Below are positions 1-45,594 of a stretch of 64,000 nt of DNA, one piece after another. Below the pieces are notes generated by a model that did no database searches, was not told where the DNA came from, and saw nothing but the letters and a program-made list of their open reading frames with translations. Where the stretch lies: contig CM022677.1 of NCBI GenBank assembly GCA_012295275.1, forward strand, positions 14,260,001 to 14,324,000. The letters are read 5' to 3'. Origin of the DNA: Chrysomallon squamiferum. Its lineage: Eukaryota; Animalia; Mollusca. The first letter of the stretch is position 1. Each line of letters begins with the position of its first letter. The position numbers and the translations under genes are program-made.

Positions 1-467
1 TACTTTGCAGAATGACTTGGCGACACGTTGTCAAATAACGCGAGTTCCTTCTCTTCCTTATAAAAGCCCGAATATTTGTTTGTTAAGGATACGACAGACA
101 CGCCCGCTGACCTGTCAGAAAGTGTGTCTGTCGTATACGTGCCTCACAACAGCTCGCCCTGATTAGCAAGTTAAATTTTTCCATTTCCATTTGTTCAGGC
201 ACAGCGAGTTGTGTTTTCTTTACCAACGAAATTACTGTTCGGGATAGCAGTTGAAAATACGCTTCTCTCTGTGTGTGTGTGTGTGTGTATGTGTGTTTTG
301 TTACCTTTTATTGTTATTTCTTCCTTTTCATCTTTTTTTTAATTTTTTTTTAATTTTGCTTTTATTGGTCTCTACTATTTTAAAAGATAATTGTCCTGGG
401 TTGTATTTTTATATGTGTTTCACTGAGCAGACTGTAGTTTTTTCCTGTATAAAGGTTTGCATCGAAA

Positions 468-1150
468 TGGGAAACTCTTGGCAGCTGAACAGGTTCGAGT
501 GATTTATATTGACACAATACGAGGCAGCAGGGATCTGTATTTTAACGAGCATACATTTCGCGTAAATAAAAATAATGGGTAGAGAACAGACTGGAAATGT
601 GTTGTTAACTCGCAGTGCAGAACCTACGTCGTGTCTGTGGACAACATGTTGCAGACGGCAGAACAGATGCAGCAACAACCACGCGGCCGTGCCATTCCAA
701 TACATCCAAGAAAACTGCCATGAATAGGATTTCATTCCGCTCCTAGGACGTCAGATGACACTGAGAGATCTGCTCACAACGCTGCACGCGCTGTATTCCT
801 CACCACACGACTCAGTCGTTTTTAGTTCCCAGTACACTCAAAGTATTTGGCGTCGTTCGCAAAACTAGGATTGGCTTCAGAATATATTGAAAACAGCGAT
901 GTACAAAAGTCGTGCTTCAGCCCTTCCGATGATCCCGCTGAACAAAGTTGAGGATGTTTTGACACAGTTGCCGACAGTCACCAGCATGAAAAGGTAACAG
1001 TGCTGATAGACTACGTCACTAACACCTGGATGAAAGGGACGTGGACTCCAGAAATGTAGAAAAACTTTGGCAATGACGGTCTCCGAACAAATAACCACTT
1101 GGAAGGATGGCGCCATGAACTCAATCAAATCGCCCAGAAGAGTCATCCGA
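468..1150 (+). mobile_element. Degenerate Mutator-like (MULE) transposase with FLYWCH zinc-finger remnant
   Basis: Manual translation across stops and frameshifts gives VIYIDTIRGSRDLYFNEHTFRVNKNNG*RTDWKCVVNSQCRT (FLYWCH-like), DDTERSAHNAARAVF...QSIWRR, LGLASEY...ALPMIPLNKVEDV and DYVTNTWMKGTWTPEM*KNFGNDGLRTNNHLEGWRHELNQ. RTNN.LEGW..LN is the characteristic MULE catalytic-E motif. Confidence 0.85.
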
Positions 1151-1318
1151 CCACATCGAGAACTTTTGTATTTCAACTGCGAACTGTTACTGCTTACAAA
1201 TGCATTGTGGTACAGAAGTAGTTCGTTGGAACCTTTTGACTGCACACAATGACAACCAGGTAAAAGGGAATTTAATGAGTACCGAGACGTAGGTAGATCC
1301 TAATTAGTACACAATTTG

Positions 1319-4250: not shown

Positions 4251-4484
4251 AAATACAAACTGGGATTGACATTTTGGAACACACAGCAGCACAAGTCTCC
4301 AGTAGAGTTGAAGTATTTGGTGCTGTTCAGCAGGTATTTAAATACATTATTCATTTTATTTCAGTTTTAAATATTTCTTCAGTCTTTCACAAAATTCTAT
4401 GCAAAATAGTTTTCTTACATTGAATTAAGCAACTTACATAAAAATGTAATATATTTGTTTTTGTAAAATCATGAAAATGAATAG
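4251..4484 (+). pseudogene. Orphan exon-end plus intron fragment, inverted duplicate of 50056-50291
   Basis: gattgacattttgga...gtctccagtagagttgaagtatttggtgctgttcagcag|gtattt and the following intron match the reverse complement of ~50056-50291. Confidence 0.75.
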
Positions 4485-5175
4485 CAATTATTGTATACTG
4501 ATACTTTGTCTGCACATAATATCTCATTTATTGAAAGAATCCATAGAATCACTAAGGACTAATTATTTGTTCAGTTATAAAGACACCTGCCATGAAATGG
4601 CAGTCTGATTTTAAGATTCTTTTTACTTTACTCTAACTTTTTTACTTTATTGTATTTATTTATTTTTATTTATTTTTATTTATTTATAAAAGGAGCAAAA
4701 ATTAATAACCAGATAATTCTACAAGTAAAATCAGTACAAATATAATTGTGTTTTTGTAGGAGATGAGAGTTAGTTGTACAATGGAGGTAATGGTTACTAT
4801 TATCACATTACTTGGATTTTTTATTTTATTTATTAGCCCTAATCATATAAACATTGATGAAAAAGACTGTTAATTCAGATATTTTGTAAGAAAAAATAAT
4901 GTAAATTATTTGTTGCTGAATTGAGAGCTCTTAAGAATTTATTCATATCTTTGTTGTCACTGATGTACTTAATTAAGGATGGCATTGTGTTGGCATTTTT
5001 TTTATTATTATTATTATTATTATTTCTTTTTCTTTTATTTCCTTACATTTTCCTTTCTCTGTATTTTCTTTTTTATCTTATTGAGCCTTCCATGTCCTTG
5101 CTACTGCTGCTGTTGCTGCTACTGTTGTTTTTATTGTTGTTCTTATTATTATTTTTATTTTTATCATTAACAGAT

Positions 5176-5420
5176 ATGGCAACAGCTTCAGATTCTGATG
5201 ATATTCATTCGTGCTGTCTTTGTATGGAAATTTTTGACAAGCTGCGAGTTCTGTATTGAGGACACTTGTTCTGCACCAAATGTCTGCAGGGCTACATAAA
5301 CCACACTTACAATAACAACGAGATAAAAATGTTCTTGTCCTGTTTCCATTCTGGTGTCAGGTGCAGGCAAATGTAAAATTGTTGTTAGTGATTATAACAA
5401 TTACTGTGTAAAATGTTTTT
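5176..5420 (+). pseudogene. TRIM-NHL-type (RING ... NHL) pseudogene, internally deleted
   Basis: After the acceptor tcattaacag the sequence reads MATASDSDDIHSCCLCMEIFDKLRVLY*GHLFCTKCLQGY, a C3HC4 RING with TGA replacing the Cys of CGH, then a frameshifted CPV. This is followed closely by GKCKIVVSDYNNYCVKCF, resembling an NHL repeat (G.IVVSD..N..VKVF). Confidence 0.75.
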
Positions 5421-11415: not shown

Positions 11416-12309
11416 TTACACAAATCCTAGTAAACGACCTATCAGAAGACAAAATTCAATTAGAACAAATAAGATTTTCCACAACAGAGAACTAAATATA
11501 CGACTAAAATACGTAAATATACGACCGATATACGCAAATATACGTCTGATGAATCCAGCTGCAGAATGTCTTCTGACTCTTTTGACTCTGAGAGGTGCCA
11601 ATGTGTACATCTCGCAGTTTCCATCTCTTAAGTTGTACACGATGGCGGTGAATCTTGCAGAGCAAACTGGACAATTTCTTCTGCTTCTAGACCACCTCTC
11701 CAAACAGCTGAAACAAAATTCATGTAAACACGAGTCTGCATGACACTTATCTAAAAATGCTTCTGAACACAAAGAACAAGTAGGTGACTTATCTGATTCA
11801 GGCTGTTGTGTTGATTCAGCAGTGCTGGGTGATGGTGATGTTGACATCCCTGGTCTTTCTCCACATGCTGCTTTTACAGGGTCACGTTCGGAAATCTTTC
11901 GCCCTTTTGGAGGCTTCTCTGGGCACCCATCATCCTGTGCTTTCCGTTTCCTAGATGTTGATGTCCCTGGTCCTCTACGTGATGTTTCTCCAGGGTCACG
12001 TTCGGAAATCTTTCGCCCTTTTGGAAGCTTCTTCGGGCACCCATCATCCTGTGCTTTCCGTTTCCTAGATGTTGATGTCCCTGGTCCTCTACGTGATGTT
12101 TCTCCAGGGTCACGTTCGGAAATCTTTCGCCCTTTTGGAAGCTTCTTCGGGCACCCATCATCCTGCGCTTTCCGTTTCCTAGATGTTGTTGTCCCTGGTC
12201 CTCTACGTGATGTTTCTCCACGTTCGGAAATCTTTCGCCCTTTTGGAGGCTTTTCAGGGCACTCATCATCCTGTGCTTTCCTTTTCTTGGACGCTCTTAC
12301 TTTTCCCAT
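11416..12309 (-). CDS. TOPORS/ICP0-like C3HC4 RING protein (putative E3 ligase) with N-terminal 38-aa basic repeats and C-terminal hydrophobic tail, ~297 aa
   Basis: Open ORF with RING CSLCSEAFLDKCHADSCLHEFCFSCLERWSRSRRNCPVCSARF followed by IVYN...Y.L, matching the TOPORS RING pattern (C.H.FC..C...WS.....CP.C...F..I). The likely start is MGKV at 12309, just after a polypyrimidine/ttgcag acceptor (exon begins 12322); the track's 12366 start lies in the presumed intron. Confidence 0.8.
   Translation of the reverse strand: MGKVRASKKRKAQDDECPEKPPKGRKISERGETSRRGPGTTTSRKRKAQDDGCPKKLPKGRKISERDPGETSRRGPGTSTSRKRKAQDDGCPKKLPKGRKISERDPGETSRRGPGTSTSRKRKAQDDGCPEKPPKGRKISERDPVKAACGERPGMSTSPSPSTAESTQQPESDKSPTCSLCSEAFLDKCHADSCLHEFCFSCLERWSRSRRNCPVCSARFTAIVYNLRDGNCEMYTLAPLRVKRVRRHSAAGFIRRIFAYIGRIFTYFSRIFSSLLWKILFVLIEFCLLIGRLLGFV
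11870..12292 (-). repeat. 114-bp in-frame coding tandem repeat, ~4 copies
   Basis: cagggtcacgttcgg occurs at 11877, 11991 and 12105 (period 114) and encodes SRKRKAQDDGCPKKLPKGRKISERDPGETSRRGPGTST. Confidence 0.95.
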
Positions 12310-12638
12310 TTCGTATTGATAACTGCAATAACATTGTAGGAGAAAACAAAATTTTATATAATCCAAAAATATCTATTAATTTTATTTCTGTTGTTAGAAT
12401 TATTTCTATTTTTATTTCATTTTTTAATGGCAGTACATTTTTTTCACTTATACGTTTTATCTGTTTGTTTTACTAACGTTAATCTTTGCACAAGGATTTT
12501 ACAACCAGGGCTAATAGCTTTGCATGAATTTATTACATAATGTGAGTTTCGCGTCTAAAATGACAGGTGTACAGGGTTTAAATTGTTTGTGGATGGTGAT
12601 TTTAAAAATACATTCAAAATAAATTAAAATCTATTATC

Positions 12639-12687: not shown

Positions 12688-13103
12688 TTAAGGTTTATAT
12701 GTTATGTGATTTCATATCATGAAATTTATTATTTTATTTATATATTTTGAATTTTTGGGGTTTTATTGTGTCATACCTTTTAAAACTTACGTTTATATTT
12801 CAAGTATTGTTATTATCAATGTTACTTTTTCTTTATCTATATTATTGTTCTTGTTGCTTTTTGTTGTTGGAGGAGTTGTTAGGTACTGAAAAGTGATTTT
12901 CAGTTTAGGAAATACAAGGTTGAGTAACTTTTTATCCTGATTTCAGAAACAAAATATTTAAAATTGTTAGTCAAATTGTTCCAAAGTTTTGGATTTTTTA
13001 ATATTGCCATTTTGAAGAAAACGTTTTATAGGCTCGTTTCATAATATGTCAACTGTGTCTTCCAAACTCTGCTAACATTTATTTACATATAAAGTTGGCA
13101 AAA

Positions 13104-13415
13104 TCAACCAGATGGTCGGATGTCCCAAAAACGCGAAGAATCACCGCAGGATTACCTCCCAGCATTTGCTAGTGCTAGCTCAGTTTACACACAAGCACGT
13201 GGCGAATAATGAGAAAAAATATGCCTGCGATTACGTTTCGAAAGATGCGCGTAGAAGAGTTGTGAAGTAAAGCTCATCAGCTACTCTCCCAGCATTTGCT
13301 AGTGCTAGCAGAACGTGAAACGCCAGCACAACCAAATACAAGCAAAGTACTGATGATGTCTTTCTCTTAATGTACGTAATGCGTAACTTTTCGTCATTTC
13401 GTCGTCTACTTGCGA
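13104..13415 (-). repeat. Inverted copy of part of the array unit (contains hairpins B and C in antisense)
   Basis: Near-exact reverse complement of 13884-14194. The junction with the sense array shares the microhomology CGA (13413-13415). Confidence 0.95.
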
Positions 13416-13779
13416 TACGTAAACTGCACGGCCACCATTTCGTTCGTAATCCGTTTTTTTTTTTTTTTCTTTAAAAGCGCTTGGTAATTTAAATTTTCGA
13501 CGTCGAAATTTCTAATTAGTCCAATTAAGTAAAAATGCTTGATGTTTCAACCAAGTGATAACTAGCGGTTGTCAATCAGTCAATTCAAAATGCATTCACT
13601 CTCACTGACAGTTCACTGCCTCATTTACTAAGTATAAGTAATTTCAGATACTTCTAATATCGTTGCAGATGCAGGCGTCGTCTCCAGTCACATAATCTTT
13701 CAGCTATTATTTGCTTTTCTTCACATTTAGTTTTCTTCAACAGAAACTGTACGAGACAATTTCCTGATATGTTATTTCT

Positions 13780-13848
13780 AAACGTTCTGGTATTTGTTTC
13801 GTGCTCGTGACGTAAAACACAACTAGCACTAGCAAATGCTGGAGGTTT
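13780..13848 (+). ncRNA. Pre-miRNA-like hairpin A (unit 1); predicted 3p 13824-13845 UAGCACUAGCAAAUGCUGGAGG
   Basis: aaacgttctggtatttgtttcgtgctcgt pairs with actagcactagcaaatgctggaggttt; CUAC at +17. Confidence 0.75.
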
Positions 13849-13948
13849 ATCGAATAGACAGCTACGCTTCCGAAACATCGCCGTCGCAAGTAGACGACGA
13901 AATGACGAAAAGTTACGCATTACGTACATTAAGAGAAAGACATCATCA

Positions 13949-14018
13949 GTACTTTGCTTGTATTTGGTTGTGCTGGCGTTTCACGTTCTGCTAGCACTAG
14001 CAAATGCTGGGAGAGTAT
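13949..14018 (+). ncRNA. Pre-miRNA-like hairpin B (unit 1); predicted 3p 13992-14013
   Basis: gtactttgcttgtatttggttgtgctggcg pairs with tgctagcactagcaaatgctgggagagtat; CUUC at +19. Confidence 0.75.
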
Positions 14019-14071
14019 CGGATGAGCTTTACTTCACAACTCTTCTACGCGCATCTTTCGAAACGTAATCG

Positions 14072-14152
14072 CAGGCATATTTTTTCTCAGTATTCGCCAC
14101 GTGCTTGTGTGTAAACTGAGCTAGCACTAGCAAATGCTGGGAGGTAATCCTG
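14072..14152 (+). ncRNA. Pre-miRNA-like hairpin C (unit 1); predicted 3p 14122-14143
   Basis: ttctcagtattcgccacgtgcttgt pairs with gctagcactagcaaatgctgggag, with a basal cagg/cctg stem, apical UGUG and CUUC at +18. Confidence 0.72.
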
Positions 14153-14285
14153 GGGTGATTCTTCGCGTTTTGGGGACATCCGACCATCTGGTTGAAAGCC
14201 TTTCCTTTTTAGCTAAATTATGCTCAAACCGCTACCAGATCACAGAAGACACCACTCAAATTTATTTACGACCATCACGTCCTTA

Positions 14286-14355
14286 ATACTTTGCTAGTAT
14301 TTCTTGGTGCTGGCGTTTCACGTCTTGTTAGCACTAGCAAATGCTGGGAGAGTAT
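14286..14355 (+). ncRNA. Pre-miRNA-like hairpin D (unit 1); predicted 3p 14329-14350
   Basis: tactttgctagtatttcttggtgctggcg pairs with tgttagcactagcaaatgctgggagagta (two mismatches, the rest WC or G:U); CUUC at +19. Confidence 0.8.
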
Positions 14356-14462
14356 AGTACGAAATGCACTTCAACAACGATACCTTTTGAGCGAAGTAAT
14401 GCTGTTTCCGCAAACAGATCACAAAAGCAGTCAGATTTATTTAGGACGACTACATCGTTAGC

Positions 14463-14529
14463 ACTCTGCTAGCATTTCTTTGTGCTGGTGTGTCACAAAG
14501 TACTAGCACTAGCAAATGCTGGGAGAGTA
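14463..14529 (+). ncRNA. Pre-miRNA-like hairpin E (unit 1); predicted 3p 14504-14525
   Basis: actctgctagcatttctttgtgctggtg pairs with tactagcactagcaaatgctgggagagt. Predicted precursor is 22+14+22 = 58 nt with apical UGUG and CUUC at +19. Confidence 0.8.
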
Positions 14530-17500
14530 TAGTACGAAATGCACTTCAACAACGATACGTAAACTGCACGGCCATCATTTCGTTCGTAATCCGTTTTTTT
14601 TTCTTCTTTAAAAGCGCTTGGTAATTTGAATTTTCGACGTCGAAATTTCTAATTAGTCCAATTAAGTAAACAATGCTTGATGTTTCAACCAAGTGATAAC
14701 TAGCGGTTGTCAATGAGTCAATTCAAAATTCATTCACTCTCACTGTCAGCTCACTGCCTCATTTACGAAGTATAAGTAATTTCAGATACTTCTAATATCG
14801 TTGCAGATGCAGGCGTCGTCTCCAGTCACATCAGCTTTCAGGTATTATTTGCTTTTCTTCACATTTAGTTTTCTTCAACAGAAACTGTACGAGACAATTT
14901 CCTGATATGTTATTTCTAAACGTTCTGGTATTTGTTTCGTGCTCGTGACGTAAAACACAACTAGCACTAGCAAATGCTGGAGGTTTATCGAATAGACAGC
15001 TACGCTTCCGAAACATCGCCGTCGCAAGTAGACGACGAAATGACGAAAAGTTACGCATTACGTACATTAAGAGAAAGACATCATCAGTACTTTGCTTGTA
15101 TTTGGTTGTGCTGGCGTTTCACGTTCTGCTAGCACTAGCAAATGCTGGGAGAGTATCGGATGAGCTTTACTTCACAACTCTTCTACGCGCATCTTTCGAA
15201 ACGTAATCGCAGGCATATTTTTTCTCAGTATTCGCCACGTGCTTGTGTGTAAACTGAGCTAGCACTAGCAAATGCTGGGAGGTAATCCTGCGGTGATTCT
15301 TCGCGTTTTGGGACATCCGACCATCTGGTTGAAAGCCTTTCCTTTTTAGCTAAATTATGCTCAAACCGCTACCAGATCACAGAAGACACCACTCAAATTT
15401 ATTTACGACCATCACGTCCTTAATACTTTGCTAGTATTTCTTGGTGCTGGCGTTTCACGTCTTGTTAGCACTAGCAAATGCTGGGAGAGTATAGTACGAA
15501 ATGCACTTCAACAACGATACCTTTTGAGCGAAGTAATGCTGTTTCCGCAAACAGATCACAAAAGCAGTCAGATTTATTTAGGACGACTACATCGTTAGCA
15601 CTCTGCTAGCATTTCTTTGTGCTGGTGTGTCACAAAGTACTAGCACTAGCAAATGCTGGGAGAGTATAGTACGAAATGCACTTCAACAACGATACGTAAA
15701 CTGCACGGCCATCATTTCGTTCGTAATCCGTTTTTTTTCTTCTTTAAAAGCGCTTGGTAATTTGAATTTTCGACGTCGAAATTTCTAATTAGTCCAATTA
15801 AGTAAACAATGCTTGATGTTTCAACCAAGTGATAACTAGCGGTTGTCAATGAGTCAATTCAAAATTCATTCACTCTCACTGTCAGCTCACTGCCTCATTT
15901 ACGAAGTATAAGTAATTTCAGATACTTCTAATATCGTTGCAGATGCAGGCGTCGTCTCCAGTCACATCAGCTTTCAGGTATTATTTGCTTTTCTTCACAT
16001 TTAGTTTTCTTCAACAGAAACTGTACGAGACAATTTCCTGATATGTTATTTCTAAACGTTCTGGTATTTGTTTCGTGCTCGTGACGTAAAACACAACTAG
16101 CACTAGCAAATGCTGGAGGTTTATCGAATAGACAGCTACGCTTCCGAAACATCGCCGTCGCAAGTAGTAGACGACGAAATGACGAAAAGTTACGCATTAC
16201 GTACATTAAGAGAAAGACATCATCAGTACTTTGTTTGTATTTGGTTGTGCTGGCGTTTCACGTTCTGCTAGCACTAGCAAATGCTGGGAGAGTATCGGAT
16301 GAGCTTTACTTCACAACTCTTCTACGCGCATCTTTCGAAACGTAATCGCAGGCATATTTTTTTCTCAGTATTCGCCACGTGCTTGTGTGTAAACTGAGCT
16401 AGCACTAGCAAATGCTGGGAGGTAATCCTGCGGTGATTCTTCGCGTTTTTGGGACATCCGACCATCTGGTTGAAAGCCTTTCCTTTTTAGCTAAATTATG
16501 CTCAAACCGCTACCAGATCACAGAAGACACCACTCAAATTTATTTACGACCATCACGTCCTTAATACTTTGCTAGTATTTCTTGGTGCTGGCGTTTCACG
16601 TCTTGTTAGCACTAGCAAATGCTGGGAGAGTATAGTACGAAATGCACTTCAACAACGATACCTTTTGAGCGAAGTAATGCTGTTTCCGCAAACAGATCAC
16701 AAAAGCAGTCAGATTTATTTAGGACGACTACATCGTTAGCACTCTGCTAGCATTTCTTTGTGCTGGTGTGTCACAAAGTACTAGCACTAGCAAATGCTGG
16801 GAGAGTATAGTACGAAATGCACTTCAACAACGATACGTAAACTGCACGGCCATCATTTCGTTCGTAATCCGTTTTTTTTTTTTTTCTTTAAAAGCGCTTG
16901 GTAATTTGAATTTTCGACGTCGAAATTTCTAATTAGTCCAATTAAGTAAACAATGCTTGATGTTTCAACCAAGTGATAACTAGCGGTTGTCAATGAGTCA
17001 ATTCAAAATTCATTCACTCTCACTGTCAGCTCACTGCCTCATTTACGAAGTATAAGTAATTTCAGATACTTCTAATATCGTTGCAGATGCAGGCGTCGTC
17101 TCCAGTCACATCAGCTTTCAGGTATTATTTGCTTTTCTTCACATTTAGTTTTCTTCAACAGAAACTGTACGAGACAATTTCCTGATATGTTATTTCTAAA
17201 CGTTCTGGTATTTGTTTCGTGCTCGTGACGTAAAACACAACTAGCACTAGCAAATGCTGGAGGTTTATCGAATAGACAGCTACGCTTCCGAAACATCGCC
17301 GTCGCAAGTAGACGACGAAATGACGAAAAGTTACGCATTACGTACATTAAGAGAAAGACATCATCAGTACTTTGCTTGTATTTGGTTGTGCTGGCGTTTC
17401 ACGTTCTGCTAGCACTAGCAAATGCTGGGAGAGTATCGGATGAGCTTTACTTCACAACTCTTCTACGCGCATCTTTCGAAACGTAATCGCAGGCATATTT

Positions 17501-20500
17501 TTCTCAGTATTCGCCACGTGCTTGTGTGTAAACTGAGCTAGCACTAGCAAATGCTGGGAGGTAATCCTGCGGTGATTCTTCGCGTTTTTGGGACATCCGA
17601 CCATCTGGTTGAAAGCCTTTCCTTTTTAGCTAAATTATGCTCAAACCGCTACCAGATCACAGAAGACACCACTCAAATTTATTTACGACCATCACGTCCT
17701 TAATACTTTGCTAGTATTTCTTGGTGCTGGCGTTTCACGTCTTGTTAGCACTAGCAAATGCTGGGAGAGTATAGTACGAAATGCACTTCAACAACGATAC
17801 CTTTTGAGCGAAGTAATGCTGTTTCCGCAAACAGATCACAAAAGCAGTCAGATTTATTTAGGACGACTACATCGTTAGCACTCTGCTAGCATTTCTTTGT
17901 GCTGGTGTGTCACAAAGTACTAGCACTAGCAAATGCTGGGAGAGTATAGTACGAAATGCACTTCAACAACGATACGTAAACTGCACGGCCATCATTTCGT
18001 TCGTAATCCGTTTTTTTTTTCTTCTTTAAAAGCGCTTGGTAATTTGAATTTTCGACGTCGAAATTTCTAATTAGTCCAATTAAGTAAACAATGCTTGATG
18101 TTTCAACCAAGTGATAACTAGCGGTTGTCAATGAGTCAATTCAAAATTCATTCACTCTCACTGTCAGCTCACTGCTGCCTCATTTACGAAGTATAAGTAA
18201 TTTCAGATACTTCTAATATCGTTGCAGATGCAGGCGTCGTCTCCAGTCACATCAGCTTTCAGGTATTATTTGCTTTTCTTCACATTTAGTTTTCTTCAAC
18301 AGAAACTGTACGAGACAATTTCCTGATATGTTATTTCTAAACGTTCTGGTATTTGTTTCGTGCTCGTGACGTAAAACACAACTAGCACTAGCAAATGCTG
18401 GAGGTTTATCGAATAGACAGCTACGCTTCCGAAACATCGCCGTCGCAAGTAGACGACGAAATGACGAAAAGTTACGCATTACGTACATTAAGAGAAAGAC
18501 ATCATCAGTACTTTGCTTGTATTTGGTTGTGCTGGCGTTTCACGTTCTGCTAGCACTAGCAAATGCTGGGAGAGTATCGGATGAGCTTTACTTCACAACT
18601 CTTCTACGCGCATCTTTCGAAACGTAATCGCAGGCATTTTTTTCTCAGTATTCGCCACGCTTGTGCTTGTGTGTAAACTGAGCTAGCACTAGCAAATGCT
18701 GGGAGGTAATCCTGCGGTGATTCTTCGCGTTTTTGGGACATCCGACCATCTGGTTGAAAGCCTTTCCTTTTTAGCTAAATTATGCTCAAACCGCTACCAG
18801 ATCACAGAAGACACCACTCAAATTTATTTACGACCATCACGTCCTTAATACTTTGCTAGTATTTCTTGGTGCTGGCGTTTCACGTCTTGTTAGCACTAGC
18901 AAATGCTGGGAGAGTATAGTACGAAATGCACTTCAACAACGATACCTTTTGAGCGAAGTAATGCTGTTTCCGCAAACAGATCACAAAAGCAGTCAGATTT
19001 ATTTAGGACGACTACATCGTTAGCACTCTGCTAGCATTTCTTTGTGCTGGTGTGTCACAAAGTACTAGCACTAGCAAATGCTGGGAGAGTATAGTACGAA
19101 ATGCACTTCAACAACGATACGTAAACTGCACGGCCATCATTTCGTTCGTAATCCGTTTTTTTTTTCTTCTTTAAAAGCGCTTGGTAATTTGAATTTTCGA
19201 CGTCGAAATTTCTAATTAGTCCAATTAAGTAAACAATGCTTGATGTTTCAACCAAGTGATAACTAGCGGTTGTCAATGAGTCAATTCAAAATTCATTCAC
19301 TCTCACTGTCAGCTCACTGCCTCATTTACGAAGTATAAGTAATTTCAGATACTTCTAATATCGTTGCAGATGCAGGCGTCGTCTCCAGTCACATCAGCTT
19401 TCAGGTATTATTTGCTTTTCTTCACATTTAGTTTTCTTCAACAGAAACTGTACGAGACAATTTCCTGATATGTTATTTCTAAACGTTCTGGTATTTGTTT
19501 CGTGCTCGTGACGTAAAACACAACTAGCACTAGCAAATGCTGGAGGTTTATCGAATAGACAGCTACGCTTCCGAAACATCGCCGTCGCAAGTAGACGACG
19601 AAATGACGAAAAGTTACGCATTACGTACATTAAGAGAAAGACATCATCAGTACTTTGCTTGTATTTGGTTGTGCTGGCGTTTCACGTTCTGCTAGCACTA
19701 GCAAATGCTGGGAGAGTATCGGATGAGCTTTACTTCACAACTCTTCTACGCGCATCTTTCGAAACGTAATCGCAGGCATATTTTTTCTCAGTATTCGCCA
19801 CGTGCTTGTGTGTAAACTGAGCTAGCACTAGCAAATGCTGGGAGGTAATCCTGCGGTGATTCTTCGCGTTTTTGGGACATCCGACCATCTGGTTGAAAGC
19901 CTTTCCTTTTTAGCTAAATTATGCTCAAACCGCTACCAGATCACAGAAGACACCACTCAAATTTATTTACGACCATCACGTCCTTAATACTTTGCTAGTA
20001 TTTCTTGGTGCTGGCGTTTCACGTCTTGTTAGCACTAGCAAATGCTGGGAGAGTATAGTACGAAATGCACTTCAACAACGATACCTTTTGAGCGAAGTAA
20101 TGCTGTTTCCGCAAACAGATCACAAAAGCAGTCAGATTTATTTAGGACGACTACATCGTTAGCACTCTGCTAGCATTTCTTTGTGCTGGTGTGTCACAAA
20201 GTACTAGCACTAGCAAATGCTGGGAGAGTATAGTACGAAATGCACTTCAACAACGATACGTAAACTGCACGGCCATCATTTCGTTCGTAATCCGTTTTTT
20301 TTCTTCTTTAAAAGCGCTTGGTAATTTGAATTTTCGACGTCGAAATTTCTAATTAGTCCAATTAAGTAAACAATGCTTGATGTTTCAACCAAGTGATAAC
20401 TAGCGGTTGTCAATGAGTCAATTCAAAATTCATTCACTCTCACTGTCAGCTCACTGCCTCATTTACGAAGTATAAGTAATTTCAGATACTTCTAATATCG

Positions 20501-23342
20501 TTGCAGATGCAGGCGTCGTCTCCAGTCACATCAGCTTTCAGGTATTATTTGCTTTTCTTCACATTTAGTTTTCTTCAACAGAAACTGTACGAGACAATTT
20601 CCTGATATGTTATTTCTAAACGTTCTGGTATTTGTTTCGTGCTCGTGACGTAAAACACAACTAGCACTAGCAAATGCTGGAGGTTTATCGAATAGACAGC
20701 TACGCTTCCGAAACATCGCCGTCGCAAGTAGACGACGAAATGACGAAAAGTTACGCATTACGTACATTAAGAGAAAGACATCATCAGTACTTTGCTTGTA
20801 TTTGGTTGTGCTGGCGTTTCACGTTCTGCTAGCACTAGCAAATGCTGGGAGAGTATCGGATGAGCTTTACTTCACAACTCTTCTACGCGCATCTTTCGAA
20901 ACGTAATCGCAGGCATATTTTTCTCAGTATTCGCCACGTGCTTGTGTGTAAACTGAGCTAGCACTAGCAAATGCTGGGAGGTAATCCTGCGGTGATTCTT
21001 CGCGTTTTTGGGACATCCGACCATCTGGTTGAAAGCCTTTCCTTTTTAGCTAAATTATGCTCAAACCGCTACCAGATCACAGAAGACACCACTCAAATTT
21101 ATTTACGACCATCACGTCCTTAATACTTTGCTAGTATTTCTTGGTGCTGGCGTTTCACGTCTTGTTAGCACTAGCAAATGCTGGGAGAGTATAGTACGAA
21201 ATGCACTTCAACAACGATACCTTTTGAGCGAAGTAATGCTGTTTCCGCAAACAGATCACAAAAGCAGTCAGATTTATTTAGGACGACTACATCGTTAGCA
21301 CTCTGCTAGCATTTCTTTGTGCTGGTGTGTCACAAAGTACTAGCACTAGCAAATGCTGGGAGAGTATAGTACGAAATGCACTTCAACAACGATACGTAAA
21401 CTGCACGGCCATCATTTCGTTCGTAATCCGTTTTTTTTTTTTTCTTTAAAAGCGCTTGGTAATTTGAATTTTCGACGTCGAAATTTCTAATTAGTCCAAT
21501 TAAGTAAACAATGCTTGATGTTTCAACCAAGTGATAACTAGCGGTTGTCAATGAGTCAATTCAAAATTCATTCACTCTCACTGTCAGCTCACTGCCTCAT
21601 TTACGAAGTATAAGTAATTTCAGATACTTCTAATATCGTTGCAGATGCAGGCGTCGTCTCCAGTCACATCAGCTTTCAGGTATTATTTGCTTTTCTTCAC
21701 ATTTAGTTTTCTTCAACAGAAACTGTACGAGACAATTTCCTGATATGTTATTTCTAAACGTTCTGGTATTTGTTTCGTGCTCGTGACGTAAAACACAACT
21801 AGCACTAGCAAATGCTGGAGGTTTATCGAATAGACAGCTACGCTTCCGAAACATCGCCGTCGCAAGTAGACGACGAAATGACGAAAAGTTACGCATTACG
21901 TACATTAAGAGAAAGACATCATCAGTACTTTGCTTGTATTTGGTTGTGCTGGCGTTTCACGTTCTGCTAGCACTAGCAAATGCTGGGAGAGTATCGGATG
22001 AGCTTTACTTCACAACTCTTCTACGCGCATCTTTCTAAACGTAATCGCAGGCATATTTTTTTCTCAGAATTCGCCACGTGCTTGTGTGTAAACTGAGCTA
22101 GCACTAGCAAATGCTGGGAGGTAATCCTGCGGTGATTCTTCGCGTTTTTGGGACATCCGACCATCTGGTTGAAAGCCTTTCCTTTTTAGCTAAATTATGC
22201 TCAAACCGCTACCAGATCACAGAAGACACCACTCAAATTTATTTACGACCATCACGTCCTTAATACTTTGCTAGTATTTCTTGGTGCTGGCGTTTCACGT
22301 CTTGTTAGCACTAGCAAATGCTGGGAGAGTATAGTACGAAATGCACTTCAACAACGATACCTTTTGAGCGAAGTAATGCTGTTTCCGCAAACAGATCACA
22401 AAAGCAGTCAGATTTATTTAGGACGACTACATCGTTAGCACTCTGCTAGCATTTCTTTGTGCTGGTGTGTCACAAAGTACTAGCACTAGCAAATGCTGGG
22501 AGAGTATAGTACGAAATGCACTTCAACAACGATACGTAAACTGCACGGCCATCATTTCGTTCGTAATCCGTTTTTTTTCTTCTTTAAAAGCGCTTGGTAA
22601 TTTGAATTTTCGACGTCGAAATTTCTAATTAGTCCAATTAAGTAAACAATGCTTGATGTTTCAACCAAGTGATAACTAGCGGTTGTCAATGAGTCAATTC
22701 AAAATTCATTCACTCTCACTGTCAGCTCACTGCCTCATTTACGAAGTATAAGTAATTTCAGATACTTCTAATATCGTTGCAGATGCAGGCGTCGTCTCCA
22801 GTCACATCAGCTTTCAGGTATTATTTGCTTTTCTTCACATTTAGTTTTCTTCAACAGAAACTGTACGAGACAATTTCCTGATATGTTATTTCTAAACGTT
22901 CTGGTATTTGTTTCGTGCTCGTGACGTAAAACACAACTAGCACTAGCAAATGCTGGAGGTTTATCGAATAGACAGCTACGCTTCCGAAACATCGCCGTCG
23001 CAAGTAGACGACGAAATGACGAAAAGTTACGCATTACGTACATTAAGAGAAAGACATCATCAGTACTTTGCTTGTATTTGGTTGTGCTGGCGTTTCACGT
23101 TCTGCTAGCACTAGCAAATGCTGGGAGAGTATCGGATGAGCTTTACTTCACAACTCTTCTACGCGCATCTTGCGCATCTTTTTCAAAGAATATGATTATA
23201 GTTTATTCATTTATTAATTTAATTAACATTTTTAAAATAGTTATTTACATCCATCAAAATATGTATTTTATTTAAATAATTGTTTTTTCACTGTTAAATG
23301 AAAAAATAAAAATGAAACGAAAATGAAATAAAATATATTTAC

Positions 23343-25184: not shown

Positions 25185-26633
25185 TTTTAATGTTCATTGT
25201 ACGGCACAAGATTTCGCTGTTTATTGTAAAAGAAACTGGATTTTTGAAATGGATATATAAATCTATTCCATTGTTGATAATGAAAAACGCAGACTATTCT
25301 GAGTTAATTTTCATATTTATTGTTCATATATTATAAACTTTTCATTTTACAGCAAAAATTGAATACATTTGCATTTTTACTGTTGTTCGTAAAAATGCAA
25401 ATATAATATAATTATTATTATTTTAATACCCTCATTCAACATACCTGTTTCTCTCTCACTCAATCTTTTACGCATAATCTTAATAAAAAAGAACAAAAAT
25501 TATTTGTTCTTTTCATTTTAAAAGTAGTGTAACTTACTGCTTCAGTTAATAATAGAAAAACAGTTCAGTTTTGTGCTGTGTGGATTGAAAAAACAAATTA
25601 CTGACAATAAATAAATAAATACAAATTAAAAATCATTAAATGATGCAGGTGCTAAATAAAAATAAAAATAAGCTTATTTATGAAAACGAAAATTGATATC
25701 AATATTAGAATTTAAGACAGCCTATTTCAATTACTGAGCGTTCTGTCGTATTTCTTCGTCTGTTTTCAGTTACGCATAATATCATTAATAAACGAGTAGT
25801 TGTTATCATACTGTCTGCTTTTATAGCAGATGTAAAGTGATATGCGAGTCGAAAACAGGTCTCCATTACGTCATTAGTTTTACACTATCAAAAACTCTAC
25901 CATGAATAAAAAAAATCAAACATTTCAATATTTAATATTAATGTAATTAGGTATTGATTTGTATTGTTAGATTTACCTTTGTTTGTCACCCAGTAGCTGA
26001 TATATTTTTCATGCTGGGCTGTCCTAAAACATTCATTCATTCGTATAGTTTGTAAAAACAAAGGCTATCAAAAATTTCACAGTTATTTAAAGAAAAGCTT
26101 TCATTCATTTGACAAAAAGAATTGACATATGACAGCACATGATACCAATACATATAATTACAAATGAAAGAATACATTTTTGAGTTTTAAGTATTTTTAT
26201 TATATAATTTTTTATTTTTTGTTATATGTGATCCTTTCCATGAGCATCAAGGCAAAAACCAGCTAATTTGTTTAAACCTAATTATGCATATACAGTTTAT
26301 GAACAGGGAAAGACAATGAAAGAGAGAATCAGAGAGGCTAGGAGAAAATTAGAGATAGTGAGAGAGAAATAAAAAGACTATGACATTATCACTATACCTG
26401 ACTTTTACCTCCAGTTCTGTAATTTTAACATCATCAACTTTTATGTTAATTCTTGACACTATGACTGGTTGTCCATAGATATATTTATTTAGGAAGTAAA
26501 AGTATTTAGAGACTGGTAGGTATTGGGTAGATAGGTAGGTTGATGATGTAGACAATCAGACAGACAGACAGACAGGTTACTGTAGATGTACACTGGTAAA
26601 TAGATATATAGTTAATAGGACTAGGGAGATGTA

Positions 26634-39186: not shown

Positions 39187-42100
39187 GATTTTGCCAGGAC
39201 TGATTTTGCTTACACTGTGTAAGTTAATAACGTGGACAAAATCATCAGAAAATCCTGATATTGATGGAGGAGGTGGGAATGCTGTTGTCAAAAAAGTGCT
39301 TATGTCATCAAATTTCTTAGATATGTCTAAGATTCAGAACAAAAGCAACGCTTGAATAACTGCGATGCAGTGAAATTAATTACCAGCTTGAAGTAAATCA
39401 ATAAACATAATGCTGTGTTTTATTAGACCAATTCTTAAGATGCTGAAAAGTATCATTTTACAATGTATATATACTGTCCTAGTTATCAATACTTTTATTT
39501 AATTCTTTTACACGTTTCATTTCCTAATACATACTTTTTGTTGCTACTTAACTTTCAGCCTGAAGAACACTCATCAGACTGATGAACATGCTGGATCCAA
39601 AAGGTGTTGATACTTTTGTTGAAAATAACTTTTACAAGAAGATCATCAAAACATGGATTCTAGACCTTAACAATGTCACAAGGTAATTGCTTAATGAACA
39701 GAAAAAAATTCCCCCAAAAAGACACACATATACACACTTATTGTTATATTACAGAATAATGTATCTCAACAATAAACAATAAACAGATGTTTTGAATTTA
39801 TTTCACTATTTCATTTACAGAATTTACAACTAATTGAATAATGTAAAATGTTTGTCTGTTATCAATGTTTTTGTTGAAATTGTTTTCTCTTACTTTCTGA
39901 TTCTTGTTATTAATGTTCAGTGGAAATCACAGGGATAATATCCTGTTCCTGTCCGAGAATATGGATTATGGATTAGCTTCAGATCCCCACTCTGAGTATT
40001 TCCAGGACACTGAAATTGGTGTCGTTTCTAAAATAATTTTCAGTTTTTATCTTTTTTTTTTAAAACTATAATATTTTTTTTCTGTTCTTGCTATGTGTTG
40101 TTTACCTTGAACAAAATTATTTTATTTGAAGTTATGAAATGGCTTGATAAGTTACTGAAAATTAAGAAAATGACCACTGAACTTAATAATTATTTATTTC
40201 ATATTTGTTATTTTTATATTTCCAGTGTATGCTGACATTTATATTTTTCATCTGAAATCTTTGTTTTGTTTCTTTCAGTCAAGAAGGTGATTTTGCAAAT
40301 GAGATGGAAAGCTCATTAACTTAGATTATTATGAAGCTTCCAGAAAAGAAAATTTTAGTGAAGTATGTTTATTTCATTTGTGTAAATGGTGAATAGAGTT
40401 TATTTTTTCAACTGACATTGAAAAATATCTGGAGATATTAACTTAGATTATATCTAACTTAATTTATTCACAATTCAGTTTTCAGCTTCTGAAATATTTT
40501 GTTAATTTAATTACCAAGAGACGACATTATTATTATTATTATTTATGCATTATTTTATTCTTATATGTTTTTGTCCTTTTTGTCAAAACTAATTTTCATT
40601 TTCTGTAAAATACTTTTTTTTGTGAAATTAGTTTCAATATGATTATCCATGAAATAAAACTGTTGCTGAACTGGGGTTTGGATTGAGTGCCAGATAAAGA
40701 AGATAGGTAATTTGCTTTTGGTGTTGTGTATTTACATTTTGATTCTGTTCCCTCTTTGATTAATTTCTAAAACTAATTTTCTTGCAGCCTGACAAACCTG
40801 TGAAAGGATTGTGTATCCTCTTCTTCTGAGTTTTGATAGTGTGGTTTTGATGAGGAAGATCCAATAGCATACATTTCCATGAGTGAGAGTTGGTTCTGTC
40901 CATAATACCTCCATTTATTATGAACTCATGGTAATAATTATAAAATAGTAACAAGTCAGTAATCAGCTTAATAATATGTTAATGTTAAAGCAATCTATAT
41001 TTGTTATGAAATGTTTGGCATCACCTTTGTGTGAAAAGACAAGGTTGGTACAATAAATCCACTGAATAATAGTTGCTCCTGCAGAAACATCTTCATAACT
41101 GATTTGGACTTAAGCTGACAAAGTGAATGTTACTGTTTCATTGGTCTGTTACATATTAATTATCATTCTTTTATTGTACTTTAGTTTTTAGTAAATGCTA
41201 TTTTTGAATCAGTATTTCAAAATATCTTGCTTGTAATGGACAATTAATATTATTATATTTATTCATTTATTGTGTGAAGTCATTGTGTTTCATGATTAAA
41301 TTTTATTAGTTTTTTTTTAGTTTTTTAAATATTATTGAAAGGACTTGTCTAAGTTCAAAACATACAACAATGCTTTATGAATAAAGTCCATCATAAAGAA
41401 AAATCGTTTTTAGATTAATATTAACCAATTACTGAAAGAAGTTTGTGATGCTTCTTACGAATGTCAGTATTGCAGTGACATGCAAATGTGTGGATCATTG
41501 TCATCTGCAAATGGAGAAAATGTAACAGAAGAAAACTTAAATTTGCAGTCTAAATAGAGGTGAGATGTACTAAATATTTAAAATTATGTTTTTGTCCACA
41601 TTTATCTCTCTCTCTGGTAGATTTTTGTTCTGATGAGTCTTGAAGTTTCATTCATATAGTTTTACAACATAATCAGTATCTTGAAATACGTTTGAACAAT
41701 GATTAATTCTAAGCAATAATGTTTTGTATGTGTTGCTTTTTGTTTTTCTTTTTTCGATTACTGTAATCTTTTTTTCTTTAGCAGTTAATTTAACATTTGT
41801 TTCTTTACATTTTTTGAAGTGAGATGTGGACAAAACTGATAGTTGATGTTTAAATTATTGTCGATGTTTAAATTATTATTAAAGCTCTAGTACTAGAAGA
41901 CAGAAATGCTAATCTAATATTATTTTATTTTACAGTTACAAGCAGATAGTTACCATACTGAACAGGCTGGAAGGTAAGAACAATAACTATATATTAATTA
42001 TATTAACACTTAAAGCATTTTATTCCTCTTAAGATTGTTATGTGGTCATTTTACATTTAATTTTTAATATAGTTGAAAATGGAAATCTCAGAAGAATCTG

Positions 42101-44500
42101 TGACCTTTCAGAAGAAATAAAAATAAGTGCTGATGACAAAGATATGACTGATGAGAACTAAATTCTGTAACTGGAAGAATCGTCAGCAGAGAGATTCCAA
42201 ACTCAGCAATTGCTTCAAGAGGTATGGAATGTTTTCTTTAAAATATAGCCTAAATACATTTTGATTTAACTTCCAGTGCTAGAGATTTTTTTTTTTTTTA
42301 CTATTATTTTTTGTATATGTGTGTTTGTGTGTGTGTGTGAGTCTGTTTTTATTTTCAAAGTAAAAAAACTTTAGAGACTGAGGATGCAGTGCCCTTGTAT
42401 TGGTTTTTCTTCCATTTCATTTCTGTTTGAAATGTTTTCTATTTACATAAAAATGTATCTAAAAAAATAAAAAGTTGAAAAACAAAAAAAACAAACAATA
42501 ACAACTAAATAAATAAAAATATTATTTCCTTTCTGAATAAATAAAATAATTATTATTACTTGGAAGTAACCATACTTTATTAAAACGTACTAGGATTTAA
42601 ATAGAAGAAGAAATCAAATTGTATTCTTATTACATAATATATGCCAGAATTCTGTAACGGTGGGAAATGGTGGGACATAAATCAGTATTTATTATTTAAT
42701 TAAAAATGTTGATACAGAAGTTTTTAATTATAATCGGTTTTAATAATAATTCCAAGTAAAATGGTAGATGAAATTATTATTTAATGGTCACTGAATTATG
42801 TTGGCTTCCATTATGCATTTATTCATTTTAAAATAAATAGTTGAGCATTCTGAAGATAATTAAATATGTAAAATTAGAATGAAAGGTGGCTGAGAACTGG
42901 ATCATAGAATAAATTTGCCTGTCAGTTCTGTAATGGTTAAACTCTGATCATAATATACCTATAAAGTACCTGTGTTGTTGTATCTTCTTCAGAATGATTA
43001 ATTTTTTATTTCTCTTGATCTAAGATGCTTCTTTTATTTATTGGTTTTAGCCTGTCATGCCACAGTTTTATCATTCAGCAAACAAACTCTCTTCCACAGA
43101 AATGCTGAGATTATTTCGAAGATGTAGAAAATAAATGTGAATCCATGACATATTAATTGTACATGAATTAAAGGAACAGAAAACATATCAGTGGTTTGAG
43201 TGCAGGCTTGGTGTCTGAGAGGTAACTGGCCTACAGGTGTATGGTGTTTTGTCTCCATGTAAAGGTGCATACAAAAGATTCCTTGCTACTTGTGTCTGTC
43301 AGCTTATTCTTTAACACCAGTATGCAGAAAATATTTTTGTCCCAAAACTATTAATAAATGAGTTTGTTTTTTTATTTTTCACTTTTCAGCAGTAAGCCTC
43401 ACAAATAAAAACTTATTTTGGTAAAACAGGTTTACTTTGGAGAAAAACAGAAATGATTACAGAAAAAATATATCTAAATATGCTTTGGTTTTGAATTGTC
43501 AGGTTTTGTTCTCTCTGCCACTAGGCAAATAAGGAACTGTATACATTATTGTTGTTACATCATAATCAGTGATATATACAAGTTTTATGAAATATTAATA
43601 CAAAATATTTTTCTGTTCTATGTTTTTCAGAGCCAGTAAAGAACTTGGTGAAAAATACTGTAACGCTGAATGTGTGAATATTTATTTTATTTTATTTTAT
43701 TTTATAATTTAAGTAGTTCTGTGTCTAACCTAAATTACTTAACTTTGTTAATGGTATTTACAGTTGGTTAAACTAACAAATCCTTAGAAATATTTTTATA
43801 AAATACTTTTCCTAGCTTTTTCATTAGAATAATATATATTAGAAAGAGAATGTAAATAATTTGTTTAGATTTTGTTTAAGAAGTGCTGTTATTGTTTTTA
43901 TTAAACCTCATTTTTTTCTAAATATGGTACTCTTTTGAAAAATTAGTGACATCTGCCAGCTGCAAGAAACACTGGAGAGAGAGAAGGAAATATGTTCCAA
44001 ATTAGAAGTTAGTTCAGTTCTAATATATATTTGTTCTTGAACTTAATGGACACATTCATTCTTCCATCATACATCAGTATCTTAAAAATAAAAACTGACA
44101 AATTTTGGTTTGATAATTTATCTGCCATAATTTCAATCTGATCAGAAATAATATAAACAGTTTAGATTAACAAAACATTCCTAAATAACTGAAAACCTGC
44201 TGAATGCCTTACATTTATATATTTTTCAGTTGATACGATTACAGGCAGGTTTACTTTGACTTTTTTTCTTTTGCAAGTTTGACTTCATTAAACACATCAT
44301 CGTATATTGGCCAGTTGCAAGTTTATTATGTAAGAGGTGATCAGTATTGTAGAAGATGTAATTTTGTTTGCAGGAAAATGTATTGAAAGAGAAAAGAGTC
44401 GGGCAGTATGACTTGCAGCACAGTTGGAAATCGGTCCACCAAAATTTTGATAGAGAATGCATGGATTATGAGGTTGGTTAACTTGTACAAGTGAAAACTT
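39187..44500 (+). other. Series of exon-like segments of an unidentified decayed gene or lncRNA
   Basis: Multiple polypyrimidine-ag...gt(a/g)ag-like bounded blocks (e.g. ~39187-39218, 39559-39682, 39921-40018, 40279-40363, 41937-41973, 42073-42221) with no continuous ORF and no recognised domain. Confidence 0.35.
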
Positions 44501-45594
44501 AGACTTTAATAAGTACAACTGAAACCATGTCTTATTCTTTGATTATTTTTTACTATGTTAATTTGTAACTTGATTATTTGTGCCTCTATACAGGAAACAA
44601 ACATGATTAGAATTTGTCAGGTATTTCATAAAGTTGATACTTTTTTCCACAAAATAATAATAAAAAGAAACCATCAAAGCAGTAAAAAAATAAACAAAAC
44701 AAATATCTTTCTATTCATTGTTTTATTCAGTGATAACAAAACAAAAACATTTTCTTTTTTATGATGAATAAAAATTAAAAAGAAGAAACAATAAAAATAA
44801 TTTGTCATTAATTCTATTTAATATCAAAACGTAAGTAAGGTAATTTTTAAAGGGATTCTTCGTACATAACACTGTGTTTAAAGAAAACAGTATATAGTGA
44901 TATAACAATAATAAGTAAGACACCTTTAGAGTTCATATATATTTATTGGTTCAGGTATTGGTTAGTCATTTATTTCAGTCTGTAAGCAAGTAATCAAAAC
45001 TAATGCACAAGTGTATGTATATTTTTGTAACATATATTACAGATTAAATCCAGGATATTTCCTACAGAATAAATTGTAATAACATAAAATTTGATCTAGA
45101 TCCATAAAGAACACAGATGTTTTTCTGAAAGTCTCATCACTGAAACCAGCTTTTTGTGTCAAAAGATATTTTAATAACAAATTAATAATAAAACTAAACG
45201 AAACAAAAATGCTGATAATATTATAGTTTAATATCAGTCTGAAAAGAAAATATAAAAACATATATTAAATAGTAATACGAATAATAATAATAAAGTAATA
45301 ATAAACTGTTTTGAATACATTTGTCTAACCTATCTATTTTTCTAGAACACTATCTCTGGTTTAACAACTGATGAATTGAAAGTTAAAATTGCTAAAGAGA
45401 TAGCATCTGTTAAAAGCAGACTAGCAAACAGTCAGACAGCTCCTGATGTTCTGGTTTGTATTAATTCATACTGGCAGATCGCCTCTTTAACAGCCCCTTT
45501 CAATTCATCAGTTAAGCTCAGAAGATATTCTATGAATGGACCAATGGCTTCTTCAACTGAATATTACTTTGACCAACCAATAATCGTAATTAAA

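What the first reader, a model, noticed from the sequence alone, without database searches (positions are those of the whole stretch)
13780..23135. Amplified cluster of ~42 pre-miRNA-like hairpins encoding one apparently unfamiliar miRNA (UAGCACUAGCAAAUGCUGGGAG)
Seen in sequence: each 1.14-kb unit contains five copies of TAGCACTAGCAAATGCTGG(GAG/AGG), and invariance begins exactly at the T. Each copy is the 3' arm of a different hairpin. The 5' arms and loops are strongly diverged but keep pairing, largely by G:U wobbles, which work only on the + strand (they would be A-C mismatches on the minus strand). Hairpin E predicts a 58-nt precursor. All five hairpins have CNNC 17-19 nt after the predicted 3p end, and C and E have apical UGUG. 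Count: 8 units x 5 + 2 = 42. Established knowledge: an invariant mature arm, a drifting star arm and loop, CNNC and UGU are hallmarks of Microprocessor/Dicer substrates, and high-copy single-seed clusters are known from zebrafish miR-430 and Xenopus miR-427, which clear maternal mRNA. Inference: this may be an independently evolved, dosage-amplified miRNA locus in an invertebrate, possibly acting in the early embryo or germline.
Basis: partly seen in the sequence, partly recalled or inferred. Interest (0 to 1): 0.95.

Follow-up and report, generated by a model that had tools for sequence, protein, structure and literature searches.

The report
Amplified microRNA array with repeated promoters
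An animal genome, likely a mollusc's, carries 44 predicted RNA hairpins that share one short invariant arm, a design found again in what is likely a second species; it likely makes one apparently unlisted microRNA in very large doses, possibly to clear maternal messages in the early embryo as fish miR-430 does.

Summary
The five hairpin types fold on + only, with 58-60-nt predicted precursors, G:U 26 vs A:C 3 in a strand-neutral count, and CNNC at 17-19 nt in 5 of 5.

New evidence: metagenome contig L001 holds a diverged 1.6-kb unit with 10 hairpins. Positions 1-17 of the arm are identical in 15 of 15 hairpins, the lower stems covary, and the linkers are unalignable. A promoter-like block (CCAAT, TATA-like) before each unit is conserved between the two (score 83 vs 22 in shuffles). 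This fits a selected, single-seed (AGCACUA) miRNA array with one likely promoter per unit, the architecture of zebrafish miR-430.

It is not miR-430 (different seed) and has no Rfam family. It is one seed letter from Mir-29, a possible origin. The host is probably a mollusc. No small-RNA data could be reached and the RNA contigs do not show transcription, so processing, timing and maternal clearance remain inferred.

The parts
13413..23171 (+). Tandem array: 9 promoter-like spacers, 8 full units (hairpins A-E) and a final partial unit (A, B); 42 hairpins
13413..13763 (+). First spacer, 95.5% identical to the internal ones; TATA-like TATAAG at 13633
   Evidence: sequence
14650..14810 (+). Promoter-like block of unit 2 (one per unit): CCAAT 14658, TGTCA 14708 and 14744, TATAAG 14771 (TATATAA in L001), conserved TAATATCRTTG 14793; start site predicted near 14800
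   Evidence: local score 83 vs shuffles 21.6 +/- 3.3, 0 of 500; promoter function inferred
14837..14882 (+). CAGGTA (5' splice-site-like, also in L001) followed by a pyrimidine tract ending in AG; no splicing seen in RNA contigs
   Evidence: no skip joint
14924..14983 (+). Predicted pre-miRNA A of unit 2 (60 nt); mature 3p 14962-14983
15094..15151 (+). Predicted pre-miRNA B (58 nt); mature 3p 15130-15151
15224..15281 (+). Predicted pre-miRNA C (58 nt); mature 3p 15260-15281
15430..15487 (+). Predicted pre-miRNA D (58 nt); mature 3p 15466-15487
15605..15662 (+). Predicted pre-miRNA E (58 nt); mature 3p 15641-15662; 3' tail identical to D's
13824..13845 (+). First predicted mature miRNA of the array (unit 1, A); the other four of unit 1 start at 13992, 14122, 14329, 14504
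13104..13415 (-). Inverted copy of hairpins B and C at the array's left edge; B' folds well (z -4.8), C' is weakened by a star-arm change (z -1.4)

Best explanation
This is a tandem array of predicted microRNA genes, conserved in design in a second genome, in which each unit likely has its own RNA polymerase II promoter and would yield five hairpins that Drosha and Dicer likely cut to one shared 22-nt 3' product (seed AGCACUA), most likely as a high-dose burst in the early embryo to clear maternal mRNAs. Shown by sequence and calls: the repeat structure, strand-specific hairpins, precursor geometry, invariance of arm positions 1-17, lower-stem covariation and a conserved upstream block. Inferred: promoter activity, processing, Argonaute loading of the 5'-U arm, and repression of mRNAs with UAGUGCU sites. 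Inferred by analogy only: embryonic timing and maternal clearance. My odds: working miRNA genes 0.92; one promoter per unit 0.75; early-embryo role, given miRNA, about 0.6.
For: (1) 44 exact cores, chance 0.01. (2) 18-20 of 22 mature bases paired, stars 22-23 nt, loops 13-15 nt, precursors 58-60 nt in 5 of 5 window types; 58-60 nt in 10 of 10 L001 hairpins. (3) Strand-neutral count G:U 26 vs A:C 3 (p 0.0005 against a 0.6 null); 26 vs 7 in 5 of the 10 L001 hairpins chosen as distinct types (p 0.019). Pairs are not fully independent. (4) CNNC at 17-19 nt in 5 of 5 (chance 0.16 each) and 8 of 10 in L001 (chance 0.07 each). (5) L001 carries 10 hairpins with positions 1-17 identical to the window's and changes confined to 18-22. 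(6) 93% of cells paired; 7 of 24 pairs and 25 cells show two-sided changes, 0 of 500 shuffles reach the cell count or covariation score. (7) Upstream block conserved (83 vs 21.6 +/- 3.3), while the stretch after the predicted start (19 vs 17) and the pooled linkers (19 vs 21) are at background. (8) The same promoter-plus-hairpins unit is described for zebrafish miR-430 (bioRxiv 2021.08.09.455629, passages), and multicopy lineage-specific clusters act just after genome activation in Tribolium (PMC4691753, passages).
Against: No small-RNA run was among the 6 runs returned. The 4 RNA runs are unstranded contigs from one study; they cover the unit including spacer and unit junction, but in the control X1 and X2 cover the neighbouring repetitive flank at similar depth, so transcription is not shown. 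Basal UG is absent in 5 of 5 and apical UGU present in only 2 of 5. The count of pairs with two-sided changes is not above shuffles (110 of 500), and the shuffle control ignores relatedness. 1 of 17 differences seen in RNA contigs falls in a mature arm (14344, depth 3, possibly an error), about the share expected without selection. Nothing here bears on tissue or stage. Host identity rests on one 60-aa pseudogene piece.
Confidence: 0.58

Rival explanations
1. The same miRNA array, but used in the germline, oocyte or one adult tissue (for example maternal loading or gonad-specific silencing) rather than at zygotic genome activation.
For: All sequence evidence supports a miRNA but is silent on timing. 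4 RNA runs of unknown tissue hold the unit.
Against: Promoter-per-unit amplification fits a short transcription window, as in miR-430 and the Tribolium clusters. This is analogy, not a test.
Confidence: 0.3
2. A once-functional miRNA cluster now spreading as satellite DNA, with most copies silent or merely tolerated.
For: Units are nearly identical (0-4 substitutions). D and E share a converted tail, X2 shows a 175-nt slip, and the edge carries an inversion. The RNA control did not separate array from flank.
Against: Both arrays were amplified with intact arms and promoter-like blocks while linkers diverged beyond recognition, which needs selection over the time since they split.
Confidence: 0.07
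3. A DNA-level element: satellite with a protein-binding box, or decayed MITE-like inverted repeats, with no RNA product.
For: Tandem, homogenised and probably high-copy. No RNA product is shown.
Against: G:U over A:C bias on one strand, fixed 58-60-nt geometry, CNNC at a fixed distance and lower-stem covariation have no DNA-level reason.
Confidence: 0.03
4. An endo-siRNA or piRNA source: read-through across the inverted B+C copy and unit 1 would form a ~310-bp duplex.
For: Inverted copy at 13104-13415, 98.7% identical.
Against: It is a single recent edge rearrangement, absent from the L001 unit, and cannot explain conservation of a 17-nt arm.
Confidence: 0.02

Closest known systems
Zebrafish MIR-430 locus (and Xenopus miR-427, recalled)
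   Same: Tandem units, each a promoter region plus several same-seed precursors; TATA box; unit sizes of about 0.6-1.4 kb with 1-4 hairpins in fishes. The reference assembly showed 8 units where long reads gave over 300 promoters; here 8 units are assembled and depth hints at more.
   Different: Seed AGCACUA against AAGUGCU; no Rfam match; host probably a mollusc; expression and targets untested.
MIR-29 family (Pdu-Mir-29-P1, hdh-miR-29)
   Same: 3p mature arm, same first six bases, 7 of the first 8 bases alike; star of hairpin D matches the Platynereis star at 15 of 22 ungapped (counted by eye; 8 of these are tied to pairing with the seed).
   Different: Seed position 7 is U not C (AGCACUA vs AGCACCA), so targets differ; only 2 of the last 14 mature bases match; no mir-29 hit in Rfam at E <= 10. 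The curated Platynereis table shows the Mir-29 8-mer only 4 times.
Tribolium multicopy early-embryo families (mir-3851, mir-3836) and Drosophila mir-309~6
   Same: Lineage-specific, multicopy, 3p arms, expressed just after genome activation and linked to maternal clearance (PMC4691753, passages).
   Different: Several seeds rather than one; no sequence relation tested or seen.
Earlier scan finding e1-7276647 (annelid same-seed hairpin cluster)
   Same: Same-seed hairpins beside a 30-copy tandem array in a probable fellow lophotrochozoan (AI note, unchecked).

Membership tests
Canonical animal miRNA gene (criteria recalled from MirGeneDB practice; 2-nt overhangs and UGU also in PMC7283388) | Hairpin with at least 16 mature bases paired, loop of 8-40 nt, ~60-nt precursor with 2-nt 3' overhangs | tested here: met
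   18-20 of 22 paired, loops 12-15 nt, precursors 58-60 nt in 15 of 15; overhangs were imposed to derive the star, not observed
Canonical animal miRNA gene | Conservation highest in seed and positions 13-16, lower in star, loop and flanks | tested here: met
   Positions 1-17 identical in 15 of 15; 5' arm plus loop 44-76% between genomes; linkers at background
Canonical animal miRNA gene | Microprocessor motifs (CNNC, apical UGU, basal UG); supportive, not required | tested here: inconclusive
   CNNC at 17-19 nt in 13 of 15; UGU near the 5p end in 2 of 5 and 6 of 10; basal UG 0 of 5
Canonical animal miRNA gene | Reads from both arms with homogeneous 5' ends and 2-nt offsets | not testable with these tools
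   No small-RNA or raw-read run among the 6 returned
MIR-430/427 | Seed AAGUGCU | tested here: not met
   Seed is AGCACUA; miR-430 seed from PMC10417697
MIR-430/427 | Tandem units with a TATA promoter per few precursors | tested here: met
   Conserved TATA-like block once per unit in both genomes; activity not shown
MIR-430/427 | Expression at genome activation and maternal mRNA clearance | not testable with these tools
   No staged data or transcriptome available
MIR-29 | Seed AGCACCA | tested here: not met
   6 of 7 seed bases match; position 7 differs
MIR-29 | 3p mature arm | tested here: met
   Invariant arm is 3p in 15 of 15; Pdu-Mir-29-P1 is 3p
MIR-29 | Precursor similarity to the family model | tested here: not met
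   No mir-29 row at E <= 10 for 12900-15000, hairpins B, D, E alone, or L001; that Rfam holds a mir-29 model is recalled
MIR-29 | Synteny with, or loss of, the host's own Mir-29 loci | not testable with these tools
   No genome held
Satellite DNA | Homogenised head-to-tail tandem repeat | tested here: met
   0-4 substitutions between 8 units
Satellite DNA | No strand-specific RNA-level constraint | tested here: not met

The most novel reading that the evidence does not exclude
A molluscan, independently evolved counterpart of the whole miR-430 locus: hundreds of promoter-bearing units that fire in the first wave of zygotic transcription and clear maternal mRNAs with a new seed, made by a one-letter change in Mir-29. 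It may be one case of a wider spiralian habit of amplifying Mir-29-like seeds for the embryo; the Platynereis early-embryo miRDeep2 table holds the Mir-29 8-mer 134 times against 4 in the curated table (only the first row seen).
Probability: 0.28. Interest if true: 0.85.

Novelty: new variant of a known kind. Interest (0 to 1): 0.63.

Why it matters
miRNA-driven clearance of maternal mRNA is documented in fish, frogs and insects and is thought to be convergent. My searches listed no such amplified locus for a mollusc or other spiralian. This locus gives a named seed, exact predicted read starts and a predicted promoter, so one staged small-RNA and mRNA series would test whether spiralians evolved the same solution, including the promoter-dense architecture. 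It also shows that such arrays can be found and supported from raw sequence by two-genome conservation, even though they collapse in assemblies.

Tried and rejected
Rfam: 0 at gathering for the window, 0 at E <= 10 for 12900-15000; single-hairpin and L001 scans gave only sub-threshold generic hairpin hits to unrelated families (best 21 bits mir-218 vs cut-off 62; 29 bits MIR6288 vs 74). Tandem Repeats Finder misses the unit (period limit 500). RNA contigs as proof of transcription: rejected after the flank control. Viral collection: 0 exact 19-mer hits; a looser pattern gave 2 hits with one shared context, a single core and no miRNA-type hairpin, taken as chance. Prokaryote genomes: 0. Papers: 0 for the 15-nt core in RNA and DNA spelling; 1 plant paper for the 11-mer and 36 mostly siRNA papers for the 8-mer, listings only, not opened. 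Supplements: valid negatives with Mir-29 as positive control in abalone gonad, Platynereis and Lymnaea. Not valid or incomplete: oyster survey (no mature sequences as text; 54, 58), octopus (data zip cut to 100 characters, PDF not searched; 49, 51), Pinctada (none held; 50), tramp snail (one mRNA hit, no positive control run; 56). Host: two homolog searches found nothing and two atlas searches were uninformative. A window-wide fold scan and the covariance model found no further family members beyond the 44. The hairpin tree is mostly unresolved; only C with h4/h7/h10 is starred, on a long branch, so orthology of hairpin types is not claimed beyond similarity. Pol III transcription judged unlikely because T-runs of 5-6 lie inside the unit. 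Two reference papers on annotation criteria and CNNC were not held; those criteria are recalled.
Full report
Observation. The 19-nt core occurs 42 times on + between 13824 and 23124, and twice on - (13159, 13289); shuffles give 0.01. The + copies fall in 8 units of 1136-1144 nt with five copies each, plus two in a final partial unit. Units differ by 0-4 substitutions and a few small indels. Homology begins at 13413 with a spacer 95.5% like the internal ones. Directly left of it lies an inverted 312-nt copy of hairpins B and C. A covariance model built from the hairpins finds these 44 and no other member in the window.

Hairpins. All five types fold into single long stems on + (-29 to -40 kcal/mol; z -3.2 to -4.9). 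On - three are at chance level and two (C, E) still fold, less well. Taking a 22-nt 3' arm from the first U and 2-nt overhangs gives stars of 22-23 nt, loops of 13-15 nt, precursors of 60, 58, 58, 58, 58 nt and 18-20 paired mature bases. Because an MFE count favours G:U, I repeated the count with a strand-neutral alignment: 26 G:U against 3 A:C (p 8e-6 at 0.5, 5e-4 at 0.6, 0.005 at 0.67; pairs share the arm and are not fully independent). CNNC starts 17, 19, 18, 19, 19 nt after the predicted end (chance 0.16 per hairpin; D and E share a tail). UGU lies at the 5p end in 2 of 5; basal UG in 0 of 5.

A second array. One scan of the metagenome collection returned 1 locus, L001 (1767 nt, 33% GC). 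Its two ends overlap over 155 nt at 98.7%, which points to a tandem unit of about 1614 nt. It holds 10 hairpins, all folding better on + (-23 to -35 against -13 to -27), with precursors of 58-60 nt and CNNC at 17-19 nt in 8 of 10 (chance 0.07). Arm positions 1-17 are identical in 15 of 15 hairpin types of the two arrays; changes lie at 18-22. The 5' arm plus loop is 44-76% alike across the two, and the linkers do not align (19 vs 21 in shuffles). On the 15-row alignment 93% of cells pair; 25 cells in 7 of 24 pairs change on both sides, mostly in the lower stem; 0 of 500 shuffles reach that cell count, though 110 of 500 reach the pair count and the control ignores relatedness. This is the conservation profile expected of a miRNA family under selection. 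That L001 is another species is inferred from the divergence; its taxon is unknown.

A promoter-like block per unit. The spacer aligns with L001's over about 14650-14810 (local score 83 vs 21.6 +/- 3.3, 0 of 500 shuffles), while the next 105 nt do not (19 vs 17). Shared in order are CCAAT, CAAGTGAT, TGTCA.TGAGT.AATTCA, a second TGTCA, a TATA-like element (TATAAG at 14771; TATATAA in L001), TAATATCRTTG 22-29 nt later, and CAGGTA about 40 nt further on. I read this as a Pol II core and proximal promoter with a start near 14800. The motif meanings are recalled and no activity is shown.

Expression and copy number. Six runs hold the unit: 4 RNA runs from one study and 2 of unrecorded kind, all as contigs. 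RNA contigs cover 30, 26, 24 and 14 of 30 bins, including the spacer and the unit junction, with no splice joint. In the control, X1 shows depth about 23 on the array and 0-34 on the flank, which is itself repetitive, so transcription is not shown. In X6 single array positions have summed depth near 16,000 (22068, 22829), flank positions about 400-2000, and some diverged contigs 20-170. If the lowest of these approximate single copies, the genome holds hundreds of units. The tool warns that this is no copy number, and a single-copy flank would make 8 units enough, so it is a hint only.

Host. A processed prolyl-4-hydroxylase pseudogene piece at 55150-55580 scores best against bivalve-type proteins: the top 15 of 185 fetched proteins, 53-59% identity, named ones from Pinctada, Tegillarca, scallops and Mytilus. 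Lamprey, brachiopod, amphipod, hemichordate and moth proteins in the set rank lower. The bivalve set was fetched with a query picked for likeness, so this says 'probably mollusc' and no more.

Mechanism. Each unit likely makes a capped transcript of five hairpins. Microprocessor would release 58-60-nt precursors, Dicer a duplex, and the 5'-U 3p arm would load into Argonaute and repress mRNAs with UAGUGCU sites. Two layers of amplification (old hairpin duplications within the unit, recent homogenised duplication of promoter plus hairpins) point to selection for dose within a short time. The known cases of this design act at genome activation: zebrafish miR-430, with 8 units in the reference and over 300 promoters in long reads (bioRxiv 2021.08.09.455629, passages), other fishes (PMC10417697, passages) and Tribolium clusters (PMC4691753, passages). 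I put maternal clearance first (0.58 overall) and a germline or tissue role second (0.3).

Comparison. It works like miR-430 but is not a member: the seed differs. No Rfam family matches. The nearest seed I found is Mir-29's, one letter off at position 7, on the same arm; 9 of 22 mature bases and 15 of 22 star bases of hairpin D match Platynereis Mir-29-P1 by eye. The seed and model tests fail, so I do not file it as Mir-29; descent from Mir-29 has odds of about 0.35. The sequence was not found in full text nor in abalone, Platynereis or Lymnaea supplement tables, each of which did return Mir-29. MirGeneDB and miRBase could not be searched and the octopus data files (PMC9699675; passages and table list seen) were unreadable, so a database entry under another name is possible (about 0.15). 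Other papers: PMC12479628 and PMC8728216 passages; PMC12257675 section 14 and supplement rows; PMC7283388 passages; PMC11989308, PMC6163488 and PMC7838618 supplement rows only; PMC9065966 listing only.

Verdict. A real, selected, single-seed hairpin array with a conserved promoter-like block per unit, present in two genomes. It is very likely a miRNA gene family, apparently unlisted, and a new variant of the miR-430-type amplified locus in a probable mollusc. Processing, timing and targets are untested. Interest 0.63.

Noticed in passing
window 11416-12372 (-): Intronless ORF (about 297 aa from Met) with a C3HC4 RING domain (E 1.5e-7) and 3.6 copies of a basic 38-aa repeat, about 700 nt from the array's inverted edge; no homolog found.
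   Followed up: partly
window 55150-55580 (+), with an inverted piece at 54937-55008: Processed, broken prolyl 4-hydroxylase alpha pseudogene; used to place the host.
   Followed up: yes
window 5078-5356 (-): Sub-threshold Pfam Adeno_100 hit (23.9 bits, cut-off 25); the opposite strand reads as a broken RING-like gene, so the hit is probably spurious.
   Followed up: no
window 430-1300 (+): Frame-broken remnant that looks like a Mutator-type transposase (recalled motif; no Pfam hit), with a 17-bp-stem hairpin near 90-135.
   Followed up: no
window 50055-50354 (-) and 4253-4420 (+): Two related segments with a weak to moderate MRVI1 Pfam hit; probably a dispersed duplicated exon.
   Followed up: no
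window 26244-26440 and 63655-63900: Two related copies of a short coding-like segment with shared upstream sequence; several exon-like pieces also lie at 39560-44400 and 45346-45594, none with a Pfam hit.
   Followed up: no
PMC12257675 supplement 2 (not a locus): The Platynereis early-embryo miRDeep2 table holds the Mir-29 8-mer 134 times against 4 in the curated table; section 14 of the paper does not mention it. It may hide a multicopy Mir-29-seed cluster. Only the first row was seen.
   Followed up: partly
L001 321-1590: The hairpins repeat internally with a ~395-nt, three-hairpin period (88% and 81% identity), in an order resembling window A-B-C; reminiscent of miR-430 triplets.
   Followed up: partly
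window 14329-14503: Run X2 shows a 175-nt slip between the identical D and E tails, i.e. an allele or unit with an extra hairpin.
   Followed up: no
window 45595-45794: Assembly gap of exactly 200 N.
   Followed up: no
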